Positions 25,954-28,184 of a stretch of DNA of 64,000 nt are shown in pieces (position 1 is the first letter of the stretch; every line of letters begins with the position of its first letter). Source of the stretch: an uncultured Bacteroidales bacterium (lineage in GTDB: Bacteria > Bacteroidota > Bacteroidia > Bacteroidales > Bacteroidaceae). The stretch lies in the NCBI GenBank assembly GCA_902781515.1, contig CACZJU010000005.1, forward strand, positions 28,911 to 92,910, written 5' to 3'. The position numbers and the translations under genes are program-made. The notes below the pieces were generated by a model, which saw only the letters and a program-made list of their open reading frames with translations, did not search any database and was not told the DNA's origin.

Positions 25954-27408
25954 ATGTTGACTATGGAAAAGAAAAGTAATTGGCTGGAGTTTAAGGCAAT
26001 ACTTGATCAGCATAAGATAACGAAGCTCTATCATTTTACAGATAGAGACAATTTAGAATCAATTACTAAGAATGGAGGTCTATACTCATGGATGGACTGT
26101 AATCGTAAGGGTATCAATATATCGAAACCTGGAGGAGGTGATCTGTCTCGTTCGTTGGATTTGAAAGATAACTTACAGGATTATGTTAGGGTGAGCTTTA
26201 CGAGAGAGCATCCTATGATGTATGTTGCGATGAAAGAGGAACGTATTTCTAATCCTGTGATTTTAGAAATAGATCCAGAGGTCATCTACTGGTCTGAAAC
26301 GAAATATGCAGATAGTAATGCAACCAGAAATGAAGCTCGTGTTGGTAAACGATTTGATGATTTCAAAAACATTCATTTCTCATCGGTAAAAGTTCACAAG
26401 CATTTTGATTTGCCTGAAGAAGAGCAACCATACTTTCAGGCAGAGGTCTTGGTGAAGAACTTCATTCCACTGGAGTATATCAAGAATATTGGGAACTTTG
26501 GTATACCAATTCCTGCACAACCGAAGAAAGTGCAAATCAAAAATCCCTATACGGCTCAGATTACAAGGAATACTCCAACGGCATTTATCTTCTTGGTAGA
26601 CCAATCTGTTTCAATGAAACGAACTACAAATCTCTATGGTGAGCAAATAACTCTAGCAGAAGCAGTTGCTCGAATTGTTAACAAACAAATATATGATTTA
26701 ATATTGAGATGCGTTAAAATGAATGACATAAGGCATTACTATGATATTGCAGTCATAGGTTACGGACATGATGTATATAGTGGATGGAATGGTACTTTGT
26801 CTGGACGTGATTTTGTGTCACCAGAAGAGATAAAGAATAATCCATATAAGAAAATTACAGTTCGTGAAGAGGTACGAACTCGAAAAGGAACGCAAATTAA
26901 AGAGATTGAGAAGAATCAATGGCTAGAGGCAAAATGTGATGGATATCGCACGCATGTTCATAAAGCATTTAATAGAGCTAAACTATTACTCGAGAATTGG
27001 ATGAAAGATCATCACGAAAATGATTGTTATCCACCAACAATCATCAATATTACAGATGGACAATTTACAGATACATCTAGAGAACAATTAGTTCAACAAG
27101 CAAATGAGCTGAAATCAATGTTTACCAATGATGGCAATGTCTTATTGTGGAATATCCATATTACTCCAAATAGTGTTGAACAGGTTTTACTTCCAATTGG
27201 AAAGCCTGAACTAAAAGGAGATAAATACTCAGAATTACTTTATGATATGTCGAGTTTATTGCCAGAAAGGTATAATGCTGATATTGAAAGTAAAATGAAT
27301 ATTGCAGCAGGAAATGTCAGGCATGTCGCTATGTCTGTGAATGTTGATACATCAAGGCTAATGCAATTAATGGATATTGGTACACCAACAAACATAAGTC
27401 CCAAATGA
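25954..27408 (+). CDS. DarT-like (DUF4433) ADP-ribosyltransferase domain fused to a vWA (TerY-like) domain
   Basis: The N-terminal ~180 aa follows the DarT motif order: LYHFTDRDNLESITKNGGLYS, YVRVSFTREHPMMY, YADSNATRN, FQAEVLVKNFIPLEYIKNI (Glu codon 26443-26445). The C-terminal ~270 aa has the vWA MIDAS motif FLVDQSVSM (DxSxS, 26599-26613) and INITDGQFTD. Confidence 0.8.
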   Translation: MLTMEKKSNWLEFKAILDQHKITKLYHFTDRDNLESITKNGGLYSWMDCNRKGINISKPGGGDLSRSLDLKDNLQDYVRVSFTREHPMMYVAMKEERISNPVILEIDPEVIYWSETKYADSNATRNEARVGKRFDDFKNIHFSSVKVHKHFDLPEEEQPYFQAEVLVKNFIPLEYIKNIGNFGIPIPAQPKKVQIKNPYTAQITRNTPTAFIFLVDQSVSMKRTTNLYGEQITLAEAVARIVNKQIYDLILRCVKMNDIRHYYDIAVIGYGHDVYSGWNGTLSGRDFVSPEEIKNNPYKKITVREEVRTRKGTQIKEIEKNQWLEAKCDGYRTHVHKAFNRAKLLLENWMKDHHENDCYPPTIINITDGQFTDTSREQLVQQANELKSMFTNDGNVLLWNIHITPNSVEQVLLPIGKPELKGDKYSELLYDMSSLLPERYNADIESKMNIAAGNVRHVAMSVNVDTSRLMQLMDIGTPTNISPK

Positions 27409-28184
27409 GAGTATTGTCATTAACAAAGTTTGAAGAAGGCATGATTAACGAAGATGCCGCTATCGCTAAAGGAAACTTGGTAGCAGTATCGGATGGTGCT
27501 GGTGGTGGAGGTGTTTTCGCAGACAAATGGTCTAAGTATTTGGTAGAACACCTGCCTGATGAACCTATTGCAGATTATGAGTCGTTCGATAAATGGATTG
27601 AAGGTATTTGGGAGCCATTCTATAATGATTGTGAGAAAAAGGCAAAAATAGAAGGTGGCTTGTTTCTAAATAAGTTTTATGACGAGGGCTCGTTTGCTAC
27701 ACTGGTGGCAGTATGGAATACCGGCCAATGGATAAGTTATGGAGATAGTGTAGTTTTCTGCTATGACAGAGATAATGGTCGGTTGCAACATTCATTTGGC
27801 CCCTTGCTTGATTTCAACAATCCACCATATCTTATTAACTGCAAAGACCCACTTATTGAGGAGGGCTTTAATTCTGGTCAGTTTGACATTAGACCTGACA
27901 GCATTGTCTTTGCTGCCAGTGATGCTTTGTCTCATTATATATTAATGATGTTCAAGGTGGCACACAGGGAAGAGTTTGAAAGCGAATTGCAGGTCGCTAT
28001 CAATGCTCAAACAAAAAACAGCAATTTTATCAGAATATGTATGAGTCAGCGTAAGATAGACTTTGAGGATGTCATTAAGAAATTGGCCCTATGTAAAAAT
28101 GCAGGAAACTATATGAGACACCTCAAAGGCATAAGGACGAAGGGCTTGATTGGGCACGATGACTATACAATAGCAATTATGTGA
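27405..28184 (+). CDS. PP2C-family Ser/Thr protein phosphatase
   Basis: INEDAAI, VAVSDGAGGGG, GSFATLV, YGDSVVF and AASDALSHY follow the PP2C metal-binding motif order. ATGA overlap with the DarT-vWA stop at 27405-27408. Confidence 0.75.
   Translation: MRVLSLTKFEEGMINEDAAIAKGNLVAVSDGAGGGGVFADKWSKYLVEHLPDEPIADYESFDKWIEGIWEPFYNDCEKKAKIEGGLFLNKFYDEGSFATLVAVWNTGQWISYGDSVVFCYDRDNGRLQHSFGPLLDFNNPPYLINCKDPLIEEGFNSGQFDIRPDSIVFAASDALSHYILMMFKVAHREEFESELQVAINAQTKNSNFIRICMSQRKIDFEDVIKKLALCKNAGNYMRHLKGIRTKGLIGHDDYTIAIM

What the first reader, a model, noticed from the sequence alone, without database searches (positions are those of the whole stretch)
25954..28184. DarT ADP-ribosyltransferase fused to a TerY-like vWA domain and translationally coupled to a PP2C phosphatase
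One 484-aa polypeptide contains the ordered DarT motifs: LYHFT..., YVRVSF..., ...SNAT..., FQAEVLV with the putative catalytic Glu at 26443-26445. These are followed by a vWA domain with an intact MIDAS (DQSVS at 26599-26613; ITDG later). Its stop overlaps the start of a PP2C phosphatase (ATGA at 27405). A paralogous kinase pair lies just upstream. In the TerY-P triad, the vWA protein is thought to be the phospho-regulated component. In DarTG, the toxin is normally held in check by a macrodomain antitoxin (DarG). Here no canonical DarG is adjacent. The DNA-ADP-ribosylating effector instead seems physically tethered to the phospho-switch. That would be a new way of gating a DarT toxin: a kinase/phosphatase-controlled abortive-infection trigger.
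Basis: partly seen in the sequence, partly recalled or inferred. Interest (0 to 1): 0.92.

Follow-up and report, generated by a model that had tools for sequence, protein, structure and literature searches.

The report
DarT–TerY fusion with hidden NADAR antitoxin
A rumen Prevotella operon fuses a DNA ADP-ribosylating toxin (DarT1-like) to the vWA protein of a TerY-P kinase/phosphatase defence module, but it does have an antitoxin: the "unknown" gene just upstream (DUF6939) is a divergent NADAR ADP-ribose-removing enzyme.

Summary
ORF 25954-27408 encodes a DarT domain (Pfam E=5.7e-36; H27, N122, Q162 and E164 intact) fused to a TerY-type vWA domain (PADLOC TerY E=8e-53; MIDAS intact). Its stop overlaps the start of a PP2C gene (ATGA), and two paralogous Ser/Thr kinases lie upstream in one tightly packed operon on a low-GC island.

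The toxin has a partner. The gene immediately upstream (25292-25951, DUF6939) is a divergent NADAR. hhalign against DarT1-associated NADARs gives 90% probability. A high-confidence AlphaFold model has a single significant PDB match, the G. lovleyi DarT1 antitoxin NADAR (8BAT). DUF6939 sits next to this DarT clade in all but one context examined, with or without TerY. Its tail resembles a β-clamp-binding motif.

The DarT is DarT1-like (guanine-type), not Thermus/DarT2-like.

The fusion family is widespread in Prevotella/Bacteroidales and is publicly annotated only as hypothetical or DUF4433.

Best reading: a hybrid of a DarTG1-like toxin/eraser pair and a TerY-P signalling triad. This is a new variant of known kinds. 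It is interesting because it gives TerY-P a recognisable effector and gives DUF6939 a function.

The parts
18755..21010 (+). STK1: cytoplasmic Ser/Thr kinase (kinase domain aa 1-285) with a C-terminal WG-repeat region
   Evidence: PADLOC STK_OB (TerY-P kinase) E=3.1e-52 covering only the kinase half of the model; Pfam Pkinase 2.3e-14; WG_beta_rep. HGDLKPDN and DYDG motifs are present.
21015..21539 (+). 174-aa ORF of unknown function, 4 nt after STK1; conserved next to STK1-type kinases in 4 related loci
   Evidence: tblastn 58-72% identity in L007, L008, L012 and L023. No hit in Pfam, NCBIfam, PADLOC or PDB.
21830..22087 (+). 85-aa ORF, conserved in several related loci upstream of a kinase; function unknown
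   Evidence: tblastn 53-81% identity in L005, L010, L013 and L016. No family hit.
22098..25286 (+). STK2: membrane receptor-type Ser/Thr kinase. It has a lipoprotein-like signal, an N-terminal WG-repeat region, a TM segment at aa 492-523, the kinase at aa ~560-840, and a C-terminal TM cluster at aa 874-927
   Evidence: PADLOC STK_OB E=5.7e-53; Pfam WG_beta_rep 7.5e-30 and Pkinase 4.3e-12. Hydropathy segments and catalytic motifs. 55% identical to the STK1 kinase domain.
25292..25951 (+). DUF6939 protein, a divergent NADAR-fold candidate ADP-ribosyl-DNA hydrolase and antitoxin. The likely true start is ATG 25298
   Evidence: Pfam DUF6939 E=1.2e-74. hhalign against DarT1-NADARs gives 90.3% probability, E=1.5e-6, 140 columns. 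42/60 family members hit PF22397 NADAR-DarT1 below threshold. The AF2 model has pLDDT 84.7, and its only significant Foldseek PDB hit is 8BAT G. lovleyi NADAR, E=3.5e-4, TM 0.51. E62, K69 and K90 are invariant and align with NADAR E88, K95 and K115.
25928..25942 (+). C-terminal ELNLF tail of the DUF6939 protein (family consensus QL[D/E]LF after a Lys-rich linker), which resembles a β-sliding-clamp-binding motif
   Evidence: 115/120 close homologues carry [QE]L[DENK]LF 1-2 residues from the C-terminus. In a more diverse set, 77/120 have Qxx[LM][FLW] in the last 14 aa, against 5/1812 background windows. 4/4 bona fide DarT1-NADARs end QxS[LF]F. The clamp-motif consensus QL[S/D]LF comes from general knowledge; binding was not tested.
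26029..26556 (+). DarT1-like ADP-ribosyltransferase domain (aa 26-201 of the fusion protein); catalytic Glu164 at 26443-26445
   Evidence: Pfam DarT E=5.7e-36. PDB 8BAQ E. coli C7 DarT1 E=5e-6. H27, R66, S81, M89, Y90, N122, Q162 and E164 correspond to DarT1 H17, R52, S63, M71, F72, N104, Q150 and E152. H27, N122 and E164 are conserved in at least 131/132 fusion-family members.
26545..27387 (+). TerY-type vWA domain (aa 198-478) with an intact MIDAS (D216-x-S218-x-S220 at 26599-26613; T367-D368 within 27049-27060)
   Evidence: PADLOC TerY E=8e-53. Motif coordinates. The MIDAS is conserved in the PP2C-linked clade and degenerate in the pseudokinase-linked clade.
27405..28184 (+). PP2C-like phosphatase, with its start overlapping the fusion gene's stop (ATGA)
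   Evidence: PADLOC TerY-P PP2C E=2.7e-7 and no Pfam hit. The metal-binding motifs SDGAGGGG, ASDALSHY and GHDDYT were read from the sequence. It lies downstream in 21/21 related loci with DNA and in L036.
28189..29436 (+). Accessory three-part protein: A1S_2505-type N-terminal domain (aa 21-130), DUF1810 (aa 141-272) and a C-terminal region with no match; function unknown
   Evidence: NCBIfam A1S_2505_Nterm 2.1e-37; Pfam DUF1810 3.4e-53; PDB 2JEK Rv1873 1.9e-31; phrog_2072. Only faint similarity (E about 0.45) to the unannotated hypothetical proteins 2AFC/2FG1. Present in 14 of 19 loci with enough downstream DNA.
18600..32900 (.). Low-GC island (34-42% GC against about 50% in the flanks) carrying the operon
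   Evidence: Composition profile. Intergenic gaps of -4 to +10 nt from 18755 to 29436, apart from one of 108 nt.

Best explanation
The locus is a hybrid of two known kinds of defence or stress module. Its core is a DarTG1-like writer/eraser pair. The writer is a DarT1-like DNA ADP-ribosyltransferase. The eraser is a divergent NADAR (DUF6939) encoded immediately upstream, which probably removes base-linked ADP-ribose and carries a C-terminal tail resembling a β-clamp-binding motif that could take it to replication forks. In this lineage the DarT is covalently fused to the vWA protein of a TerY-P triad and co-transcribed with one to three WG-repeat Ser/Thr kinases (one a membrane receptor type) and a translationally coupled PP2C.

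Shown here: the domain identities, intact catalytic and MIDAS residues, the NADAR fold of DUF6939, conserved synteny, and the modular use of this DarT clade with ligand-binding repeats.

Inferred: in the resting state the NADAR erases basal modification and the PP2C keeps the TerY switch unphosphorylated. On infection or envelope perturbation sensed by the WG-repeat kinases, phosphorylation acts through the MIDAS-bearing vWA domain and activates or relocalises the attached DarT. The DarT then outruns the eraser and ADP-ribosylates ssDNA, most likely on guanine, blocking phage and/or host replication.
For: DarT identity and catalytic residues. H23 and the Q158/E160 motif are invariant in 78 diverse members of the DarT clade.

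TerY, PP2C and STK identities.

Operon packing and low-GC island.

DUF6939 is a NADAR: one member gives a sub-threshold PF22397 hit at E=1.2e-4 and 42/60 members hit it at E<=1. hhalign gives 70-90% probability and E=1.5e-6 with a colinear extension to the C-terminus. The AF2 model has pLDDT 84.7, and its unique Foldseek hit is 8BAT, E=3.5e-4 against 0.58 for the next hit. NADAR catalytic E88 and K95 align with invariant E62 and K69.

Co-occurrence of DUF6939 with this DarT clade: 23/24 related loci, and the 24th lacks upstream DNA. Also L026 (DarT-LRR), L027, L032, L034, L036, L037, L039 (Hymenobacter) and L040 (Cellulosilyticaceae).

NADARs are established antitoxins of DarT1 that hydrolyse guanine-ADPr (PMC11543638).

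Kinase linkage: 1-3 same-strand kinases lie upstream in 19 of the 20 loci with at least about 3.7 kb of upstream DNA.

Co-variation: the clade whose upstream kinase homologue lacks the catalytic-loop and DFG motifs also lacks PP2C and has a degenerate MIDAS. This links kinase activity, the phosphatase and the MIDAS functionally.

The same DarT module is fused elsewhere directly to LRR, Sel1, TPR and WG sensor-type repeats, which fits an effector role.

TerY-P-like triads act as stand-alone anti-phage systems, and the triad is hypothesised to be a phosphorylation switch (PMC11090510, citing Gao 2020 and Anantharaman 2012).
Against: There is no experimental evidence for toxicity, DNA modification, hydrolase activity, phosphorylation or phage defence for any member.

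DUF6939 scores below Pfam's gathering threshold for NADAR-DarT1 (22 bits against 27). The TM-score to 8BAT is only 0.51. The equivalent of the last-strand catalytic Asp is ambiguous: D155 is invariant, while D161 is Asp in 47/60 members.

The guanine-reading residues K74 and Y75 of DarT1 are replaced by A92 and M93, so base specificity, and even the DNA-versus-RNA target, is not established.

The kinases lack the OB fold of the experimentally validated TerY-P and carry WG repeats instead.

The PP2C assignment rests on one weak profile hit plus motifs.

DarT::TerY fusions also occur with pseudokinases and no PP2C, or with a His-kinase/iREC pair and no DUF6939. Phospho-control by Ser/Thr kinases is therefore not universal for the fusion.

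The clamp-motif reading is pattern-based only.

All relatives are MAG or metagenome sequences.
Confidence: 0.6

Rival explanations
1. One reading: DarT has no antitoxin here and is held in check only by tethering to the TerY phospho-switch (kinase ON, PP2C OFF).
For: No macrodomain DarG is adjacent. The fusion, the PP2C coupling and the kinases are real and conserved. One distant fusion locus (L035) has no DUF6939.
Against: A NADAR-fold gene lies immediately upstream in the window and in all 23 related loci that have upstream DNA. It pairs with this DarT clade even where no TerY, kinase or PP2C exists. Its fold and conserved Glu and Lys match the DarT1 antitoxin.
Confidence: 0.08
2. The DarT-NADAR pair is an autonomous DarTG1-type toxin-antitoxin module. 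The vWA fusion serves only as a scaffold or localisation domain, and the kinases and PP2C act on other targets, so two systems share one operon without phospho-control of DarT.
For: DarT-DUF6939 exists as a self-sufficient two-gene module elsewhere. Defence genes commonly cluster in islands. Fusions exist without an active kinase or PP2C.
Against: A covalent fusion conserved across about 11 clusters at 50% identity argues for functional coupling, as do the ATGA coupling to PP2C and strict synteny. Co-loss of kinase catalytic motifs, PP2C and MIDAS in one clade points to an interdependent unit that includes the vWA fused to DarT.
Confidence: 0.2
3. The system is a physiological growth or replication regulator rather than anti-phage immunity. 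Envelope signals sensed by the WG-repeat receptor kinase tune reversible DNA ADP-ribosylation, as proposed for M. tuberculosis DarTG.
For: STK2 has the topology of a membrane receptor kinase. DarTG controls replication and gene expression in M. tuberculosis (PMC12170906 abstract). A clamp-motif-like tail on the eraser would fit replication-fork chemistry.
Against: The operon is on a low-GC island and is patchily distributed. The same DarT module is shuffled among LRR, Sel1, TPR and WG architectures. Kinase copy number is variable. Next to it, one distant locus has a resolvase (L026) and another a RhuM-type gene (L027). All of this is typical of conflict systems, and TerY-P and DarTG are both validated defences.
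Confidence: 0.12
4. The DarT-like domain modifies something other than DNA (RNA, a protein such as the kinase or the vWA domain, or a small molecule), and DUF6939 reverses that modification.
For: The guanine-reading K74 and Y75 of DarT1 are not conserved. NADARs also act on RNA-linked and cytidine-linked ADP-ribose (PMC12945103).
Against: All residues shown to be essential for DarT1 DNA-base ADP-ribosylation are conserved: R52, M71, N104 and E152, plus the DNA-phosphate contact Q150. The eraser's C-terminal motif resembles a replisome (clamp) tether.
Confidence: 0.1

Closest known systems
DarTG1 (DarT1-NADAR) toxin-antitoxin system, e.g. E. coli C7 and Geobacter lovleyi (Schuller et al. 2023, PMC11543638)
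   Same: It pairs an ARTD-type DarT with a NADAR-fold partner encoded next to it. The DarT has the DarT1 signature residues: H, R, Ser at the 'Y' position, M, N104-equivalent, Q and E. The NADAR Glu and Lys are conserved. Both partner types end in a Qxx[L]F tail.
   Different: The NADAR is a separate Pfam family (DUF6939) that scores below the NADAR-DarT1 threshold. Gene order is antitoxin then toxin. The DarT is fused to a vWA domain and placed under a kinase/phosphatase operon. The guanine-reading K74 and Y75 are not conserved. NCBIfam toxin_DarT scores 48 bits against a cut-off of 150.
TerY-P triad (TerY vWA + PP2C + Ser/Thr kinase; Anantharaman 2012; anti-phage activity in Gao 2020, as summarised in PMC11090510)
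   Same: It has a TerY-type vWA with MIDAS, an adjacent PP2C with overlapping stop and start, and kinases matching the TerY-P kinase model. The closest standalone TerY (P0275) is likewise followed by a PP2C_2-like gene.
   Different: The TerY carries an N-terminal DarT enzyme. The kinases have WG repeats (one is a membrane receptor) instead of the OB fold or zinc ribbon, and they are duplicated. A NADAR gene is inserted between the kinases and TerY.
DarTG2 (DarT2-DarG macrodomain; Thermus, Mycobacterium)
   Same: [quoted passage not shown]
   Different: No macrodomain DarG is present. Ser81 and Asn122 replace the Tyr71 and His119 of DarT2. No PDB DarT2 chain is matched at E<=1.
YarT-YbiA toxin-antitoxin pair (PMC11125620)
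   Same: An ART toxin neutralised by a non-canonical NADAR-superfamily member.
   Different: The ART there is unrelated to DarT. The NADAR is YbiA-type with a Glu in the last strand.

Membership tests
DarT family (Pfam PF14487 / DUF4433) | Profile match above the curated threshold | tested here: met
   124.6 bits against a cut-off of 22.5, E=5.7e-36, aa 26-201.
DarT family | ART catalytic His and Glu, with the NAD-binding Arg | tested here: met
   H27, R66 and E164 align with DarT1 H17, R52 and E152. H and E are invariant in 131-132 fusion homologues and in 78 other clade members.
DarT1 subfamily (guanine-specific) | Ser at the H-Y-E 'Y' position, Asn as the base-coordinating residue (N104), and M71 | tested here: met
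   S81, N122 and M89.
DarT1 subfamily (guanine-specific) | Guanine O6/N7 readers K74 and Y75 | tested here: not met
   The aligned residues are A92 and M93, and A92 is nearly invariant in the family. Base specificity is therefore open.
NCBIfam toxin_DarT equivalog (NF048013) | Score at or above the 150-bit cut-off | tested here: not met
   48.1 bits.
DarTG1 system | Adjacent NADAR-fold antitoxin gene | tested here: met
   The DUF6939 gene ends 2 nt before the fusion ORF, or 11 nt before the likely start. hhalign gives 90% probability. Foldseek's unique hit is 8BAT. E and K are conserved.
DarT1-associated NADAR family (Pfam PF22397) | Profile match above the curated threshold (27 bits) | tested here: not met
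   The window protein gives no hit. The best family member reaches 22 bits, and 42/60 members hit at E<=1. This makes it a divergent sister family (DUF6939), not a member.
DarTG1 system | The antitoxin hydrolyses base-linked ADP-ribose and neutralises the toxin | not testable with these tools
   Needs toxicity-rescue and de-ADP-ribosylation assays.
DarTG2 system | Adjacent macrodomain DarG | tested here: not met
   No Macro family hit in any operon protein. The A1S_2505 domain matches the unannotated 2AFC/2FG1 only at E about 0.45.
TerY-P triad | TerY-type vWA protein with MIDAS | tested here: met
   PADLOC TerY E=8e-53. D216-x-S-x-S220 and T367-D368 are present.
TerY-P triad | PP2C phosphatase adjacent | tested here: met
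   PADLOC PP2C (TerY-P) E=2.7e-7. ATGA overlap. The Asp-containing motifs SDGAGG, SDA and DDYT are present. The profile support is weak and there is no Pfam hit.
TerY-P triad | Ser/Thr kinase with a C-terminal OB fold (defence type) or zinc ribbon | tested here: not met
   The kinase domain matches STK_OB positions 1-281 of 562 only. The C-terminal or N-terminal parts are WG repeats. The kinase component is present, but the OB or zinc-ribbon part is absent.
β-clamp-binding proteins | QL[S/D]LF-type pentapeptide at a terminus | tested here: inconclusive
   The window has ELNLF and the family majority QLDLF or QLELF. The pattern is enriched at the C-terminus, 77/120 against 5/1812 background windows. 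Binding to the clamp cannot be tested here.

The most novel reading that the evidence does not exclude
The TerY vWA domain is the phospho-dependent output adaptor of TerY-P systems. WG-repeat receptor kinases sense infection or envelope damage. A phosphorylated ligand is read by the MIDAS, and this releases a covalently attached DarT1-like DNA ADP-ribosyltransferase. A replisome-tethered NADAR (DUF6939) sets the activation threshold and resets the system. That would give TerY-P its first identifiable effector and a three-layer (kinase, phosphatase, eraser) control of a DNA-modifying toxin.
Probability: 0.35. Interest if true: 0.8.

Novelty: new variant of a known kind. Interest (0 to 1): 0.66.

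Why it matters
First, TerY-P is an experimentally validated anti-phage system whose effector and mechanism are unknown. A lineage in which the TerY protein itself carries a recognisable toxin domain offers a direct handle on what the kinase/phosphatase/vWA switch controls. Second, it assigns a testable function to DUF6939, a large family (more than 7,000 hits in each of two searches): a NADAR-type eraser and antitoxin for a third DarT clade. That extends the DarTG paradigm into the Bacteroidota of gut and rumen. Third, the clamp-binding-like tail shared by DUF6939 and bona fide DarT1-associated NADARs suggests how these antitoxins find ADP-ribosylated DNA at forks, a point the NADAR papers list as open. 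Fourth, this DarT clade behaves as a portable effector fused to LRR, Sel1, TPR and WG sensor repeats. Automated defence finders would label the locus only "TerY-P" and miss both the toxin and the antitoxin.

Tried and rejected
(1) Sequence searches of DUF6939 against the PDB, as a single sequence, a shallow profile and the divergent member L027, found nothing meaningful.

(2) A first AlphaFold model from a shallow alignment (22 sequences at 80% identity or more) had pLDDT 60, and its Foldseek search gave only noise. It was superseded by the model from the 60-sequence alignment.

(3) I tested the idea that the N-terminal A1S_2505 domain of the downstream gene is a macrodomain (a DarG analogue). 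Single-sequence and profile searches gave only E of about 0.45-1 to 2AFC/2FG1, and a permissive Pfam scan gave nothing. The idea is not demonstrated and is left open.

(4) By eye, g21015 looked like an R-S-E-type ART ('LYRF…YITTT'). It has no support in Pfam, NCBIfam, PADLOC, PHROGs or the PDB, so I dropped it.

(5) Literature searches for DarT+TerY, DarT+vWA, DUF1810, DUF4433 and A1S_2505 found no description of this fusion or of DUF6939 as a NADAR. Anantharaman 2012 and Gao 2020 could not be read, so TerY-P background comes second-hand from PMC11090510.

(6) The sigma-70 promoter and terminator scan after the operon was uninformative. It found no terminator, and Bacteroidota promoters are not covered.

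(7) The first synteny count under-reported kinases because of a full-length coverage filter. I redid it with the kinase domain alone.

(8) There are no tRNA genes in the window, and no integrase or recombinase family turned up among the proteins I scanned, which covered only part of the flanks. The island borders are therefore defined by GC content only.

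
Full report
OBSERVATION

The ORF at 25954-27408 (+) exists.
- LYHFT at 26026-26040
- YVRVSF at 26182-26199
- SNAT at 26314-26325
- FQAEVLV at 26434-26454, with Glu164 at 26443-26445
- the MIDAS DQSVS at 26599-26613 and ITDG at 27049-27060

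Identical database proteins start three codons later, at ATG 25963, giving 481 aa.

Profile searches support both domains strongly. Pfam DarT (PF14487) covers aa 26-201 with E=5.7e-36. The PADLOC TerY model covers aa 198-478 with E=8e-53. The stop codon overlaps the start of a 259-aa ORF (ATGA at 27405-27408). That ORF matches only the TerY-P PP2C model of PADLOC (E=2.7e-7) and no Pfam model. It does carry the Asp-containing PP2C motifs SDGAGGGG, ASDALSHY and GHDDYT.

Two kinases lie upstream, at 18755-21010 and 22098-25286. They share 55% identity over 282 residues. Both match the TerY-P kinase model at about 1e-52, but only over its kinase half. The rest of each protein is WG repeats. STK2 has a lipoprotein-like signal, a TM segment at aa 492-523 and a C-terminal TM cluster, which is the topology of a membrane receptor kinase.

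From 18755 to 29436 the genes are separated by -4 to +10 nt, apart from one 108-nt gap. They sit on a low-GC island of 34-42% GC, against about 50% in the flanks.

IS IT A ONE-OFF?

No. At least 120 full-length proteins of about 482 aa share 74-100% identity. 24 loci in Prevotella/Bacteroidales genomes and MAGs, mostly from rumen, carry the fusion. An exhaustive search of 1.84 billion cluster representatives found about 11 clusters at 50% identity spanning both domains, down to 30% identity. Public names are only 'hypothetical protein' or 'DUF4433 domain-containing protein'.

In the 24 loci the neighbourhood is conserved:
- DUF6939 lies immediately upstream in 23. The 24th has no upstream DNA.
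- The PP2C lies downstream in 21 of 21 loci with DNA.
- An A1S_2505/DUF1810 gene follows in 14 of 19.
- One to three same-strand kinase genes lie upstream in 19 of the 20 loci with at least about 3.7 kb of upstream DNA.

WHAT KIND OF DarT?

The only solved structure matched by sequence is E. coli C7 DarT1, the guanine-specific enzyme (8BAQ, E=5e-6). No DarT2 chain appears at E<=1.

I mapped that alignment onto the residues tested by Schuller et al. 2023 (PMC11543638):

| DarT1 residue | Window residue |
|---|---|
| H17 | H27 |
| F18 | F28 |
| R52 | R66 |
| D54 | D69 or D72 |
| S63 | S81 |
| M71 | M89 |
| F72 | Y90 |
| N104 | N122 |
| Q150 | Q162 |
| E152 | E164 |

Ser at the 'Y' position of H-Y-E, and Asn where DarT2 has His119, are DarT1 hallmarks. 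H27, N122 and E164 are conserved in at least 131 of 132 fusion homologues. H and the QAE motif are invariant in 78 other members of the clade.

The guanine O6/N7 readers K74 and Y75 are not conserved; the window has A92 and M93. The NCBIfam DarT equivalog scores 48 bits against a cut-off of 150. So this is a distinct DarT clade nearer to DarT1. It is catalytically competent by sequence, but its base specificity is unproven.

THE 'MISSING' ANTITOXIN

The gene directly upstream (25292-25951; likely start 25298) belongs to Pfam DUF6939 (E=1.2e-74). Four independent lines show that it is a divergent NADAR, the fold of the DarG1 antitoxin.

1. Pfam. A divergent member (L027) hits Pfam 'DarT1-associated NADAR antitoxin' PF22397 at E=1.2e-4, below threshold. 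42 of 60 diverse members hit it at E<=1, and it is by far the commonest second family.

2. Profile-profile comparison. I retrieved four bona fide DarT1-NADAR pairs from plasmids and confirmed them at 1e-76 to 1e-93. Compared with these, the 60-sequence DUF6939 alignment gives 90.3% probability and E=1.5e-6 over 140 columns. At a lower MAC threshold the alignment is colinear to the C-terminus.

3. Structure. An AlphaFold model built from the 60-sequence alignment has pLDDT 84.7, about 95 over the folded domain, and pTM 0.79. Its only significant PDB match is 8BAT, the Geobacter lovleyi DarT1-associated NADAR (E=3.5e-4, probability 1.00, TM 0.51, 168 columns). The next hit has E=0.58.

4. Catalytic residues. 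The NADAR residues E88 and K95, and the toxicity-rescue residue K115, align with E62, K69 and K90, which are invariant in all 60 sequences. The equivalent of the last-strand Asp D171 is ambiguous: D155 is invariant and D161 is Asp in 47 of 60.

Context agrees. DUF6939 is adjacent to this DarT clade whatever else is present:
- a DarT-LRR fusion (L026)
- a C-terminal DarT (L027)
- a plain two-gene DarT-DUF6939 module in Hymenobacter (L039)
- a plain two-gene module in a Cellulosilyticaceae MAG (L040)

PADLOC has no model that recognises it. The locus therefore contains a DarTG1-like writer/eraser pair. 'No canonical DarG' is true only in the narrow, macrodomain sense.

A SHARED TAIL

DUF6939 proteins end with a Lys-rich linker and [Q/E]L[D/E/N]LF. 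115 of 120 close homologues have it, and the window has ELNLF at 25928-25942. In a more diverse set, 77 of 120 have Qxx[LM][FLW] in the last 14 residues, against 5 of 1,812 background windows. All four genuine DarT1-NADARs end QxS[L/F]F.

This matches the bacterial β-sliding-clamp-binding consensus QL[S/D]LF. That consensus is from my own knowledge, and binding is untested. Neither NADAR paper mentions such a tail. If real, it would place the eraser at replication forks.

THE TerY-P SIDE AND VARIANTS OF THE FUSION

The closest standalone TerY (41% identical) is followed by an overlapping PP2C_2-like gene, which is the canonical arrangement. The DarT::TerY fusion occurs in at least three operon types.

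- Type A (the window and L036): active kinases (HGDLKPDN and DYDG motifs), DUF6939, a fusion with intact MIDAS, and PP2C.
- Type B (L032, L034, L037): a roughly 900-1,000-aa Sel1/LRR protein, then DUF6939, then a fusion whose MIDAS is degenerate (D216 to N/S, S220 to P/Y/H/D, D368 to E/G/P), and no PP2C. In L032 and L034 the N-terminus of the Sel1/LRR protein is 32% identical to the STK1 kinase domain by tblastn. L037 fell below the tblastn thresholds but has a similar N-terminal sequence. All three lack the catalytic-loop and DFG-type motifs, so I read them as pseudokinases.
- Type C (L035): a 'HisKin-conflict' protein and an iREC protein precede a fusion with intact MIDAS, and DUF6939 is absent.

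The joint loss of kinase catalytic motifs, phosphatase and MIDAS in type B argues that these three features work together with the vWA domain that carries DarT. Type B is one clade, so this may be a single evolutionary event. The retained pseudokinase suggests a physical kinase-TerY contact.

Outside the fusion, the same DarT module (50-65% identical) is attached to BspA-type LRR, Sel1, TPR, WG and FGE-sulfatase domains. That is the behaviour of a portable effector coupled to ligand-binding sensors.

MECHANISM

Shown: the identities, motifs, fold and synteny described above.

Established elsewhere: DarT1 ADP-ribosylates guanine in DNA and is toxic, and NADAR reverses this and acts as its antitoxin (PMC11543638). 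TerY-P-like triads defend against phage, and the triad is proposed to be a phosphorylation switch (PMC11090510).

Inferred: the NADAR erases basal modification and PP2C keeps the switch off. The WG-repeat kinases, one of them a membrane receptor, respond to infection or envelope perturbation. Phosphorylation acts through the MIDAS-bearing vWA to activate or relocalise DarT, which then overwhelms the eraser and blocks replication.

I put about 0.85 on the compositional statement (a DarT1-like/NADAR-like pair fused into a TerY-P-like operon) and about 0.4-0.5 on phospho-control of DarT. Overall confidence is 0.6.

RIVALS

The rivals are listed in the Rival explanations section:
- purely phospho-gated with no antitoxin, now unlikely
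- an autonomous TA module with the vWA as a mere scaffold
- a physiological replication regulator
- a non-DNA target

COMPARISON AND NOVELTY

The locus works like DarTG1 plus TerY-P. It fails strict membership of the NADAR-DarT1 Pfam family, of the NCBIfam DarT equivalog and of the OB-fold kinase type of TerY-P. So it is a new variant, a hybrid, of known kinds rather than a member of either and rather than a categorically new system.

I found no description of the fusion, or of DUF6939 as a NADAR, in the searchable literature. A 2026 paper still describes nucleotide-modifying ARTs other than PARPs as 'mostly single-domain proteins' (PMC12945103).

UNRESOLVED

- The function of the A1S_2505/DUF1810 protein. 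Macro-like similarity is not demonstrated.
- The small conserved ORFs next to the kinases.
- The base specificity of the DarT.
- Whether the nearby ADP-ribosylglycohydrolase (32907-33731) and TerB-DnaJ (33869-34645) genes are functionally linked. ARH recurs in only 2 of 24 loci.

Noticed in passing
window 25928-25942; L028-L031 NADAR C-termini: DUF6939 proteins and bona fide DarT1-associated NADAR antitoxins both end in a Qxx[L]F-type tail (QLDLF, QLELF or ELNLF; QxSLF). It resembles the β-sliding-clamp-binding motif and comes after a Lys-rich linker. The NADAR papers read here do not mention it.
   Followed up: partly
L032:309-3305, L034:156-3077, L037:40-2688: In divergent DarT::TerY loci, the upstream Sel1/LRR giant protein of L032 and L034 starts with a domain homologous to the TerY-P-type kinase (32% identity). 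L037 is similar by eye only. All three lack the catalytic-loop and DFG motifs, so I read them as pseudokinases. The same loci lack PP2C and have a degenerate MIDAS in the fusion.
   Followed up: partly
L035:190-5181: A 30%-identical DarT::TerY fusion sits behind 'HisKin-conflict' (PF22561) and iREC (PF22563) genes, with no DUF6939. This is a different phospho-signalling front end for the same effector fusion.
   Followed up: no
proteins P0251-P0389: The same DarT clade (50-65% identical) is fused N- or C-terminally to BspA-type LRR (12 of 78), LRR_8 (10), Sel1, TPR, WG repeats and an FGE-sulfatase domain. About two thirds of the partner regions have no Pfam domain.
   Followed up: partly
window 28189-29436: Conserved accessory gene: A1S_2505-type N-terminal domain (also phrog_2072), DUF1810 (Rv1873-like, PDB 2JEK) and an unassigned C-terminal ~140 aa. 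The motifs FVFGSNxxGxHxGGA and VGCGIAGY look macro-like by eye, but this was not demonstrated.
   Followed up: partly
window 32907-33731 and 33869-34645: An ADP-ribosylglycohydrolase (PF03747, E=1.9e-35) and a TerB-DnaJ (DjlA-like) protein lie just beyond the low-GC island. ARH recurs near the fusion in only 2 of 24 related loci (L009, L023).
   Followed up: partly
window 21015-21539: A 174-aa ORF 4 nt after STK1 is conserved beside STK1-type kinases in L007, L008, L012 and L023. There is no family or PDB match. An ART-like 'LYRF…TTT' pattern seen by eye has no tool support.
   Followed up: partly
window 22098-25286: STK2 has the layout of a receptor kinase: a lipoprotein-like signal (aa 6-24), about 450 aa of WG repeats, a TM segment (492-523), the kinase, and a C-terminal TM cluster (874-927). 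Kinase copy number upstream of the fusion varies from 1 to 3 between loci.
   Followed up: partly
BFVD hits to model m0ca2a321e65c: Uncharacterised proteins of giant viruses (Pithovirus, Megaviridae, Marseillevirus, Solivirus, Bodo saltans virus) share the DUF6939/NADAR-like fold, with E from 1e-6 to 1e-3 and TM 0.52-0.59.
   Followed up: no
L028:1443-2606, L031:75-2615: Plasmid-borne DarT1 proteins paired with canonical NADARs also carry long N-terminal extensions (387 and 846 aa; the latter lies next to an N-6 DNA methylase). Multi-domain DarT1 proteins are therefore not confined to Bacteroidota.
   Followed up: no
window 18600-32900: Low-GC island (34-42% GC against about 50%). The window has no tRNA genes, and no integrase or recombinase family turned up among the proteins scanned, which covered only part of the flanks. 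The flanks encode housekeeping genes (PrmA, GH25 lysozyme-like).
   Followed up: partly
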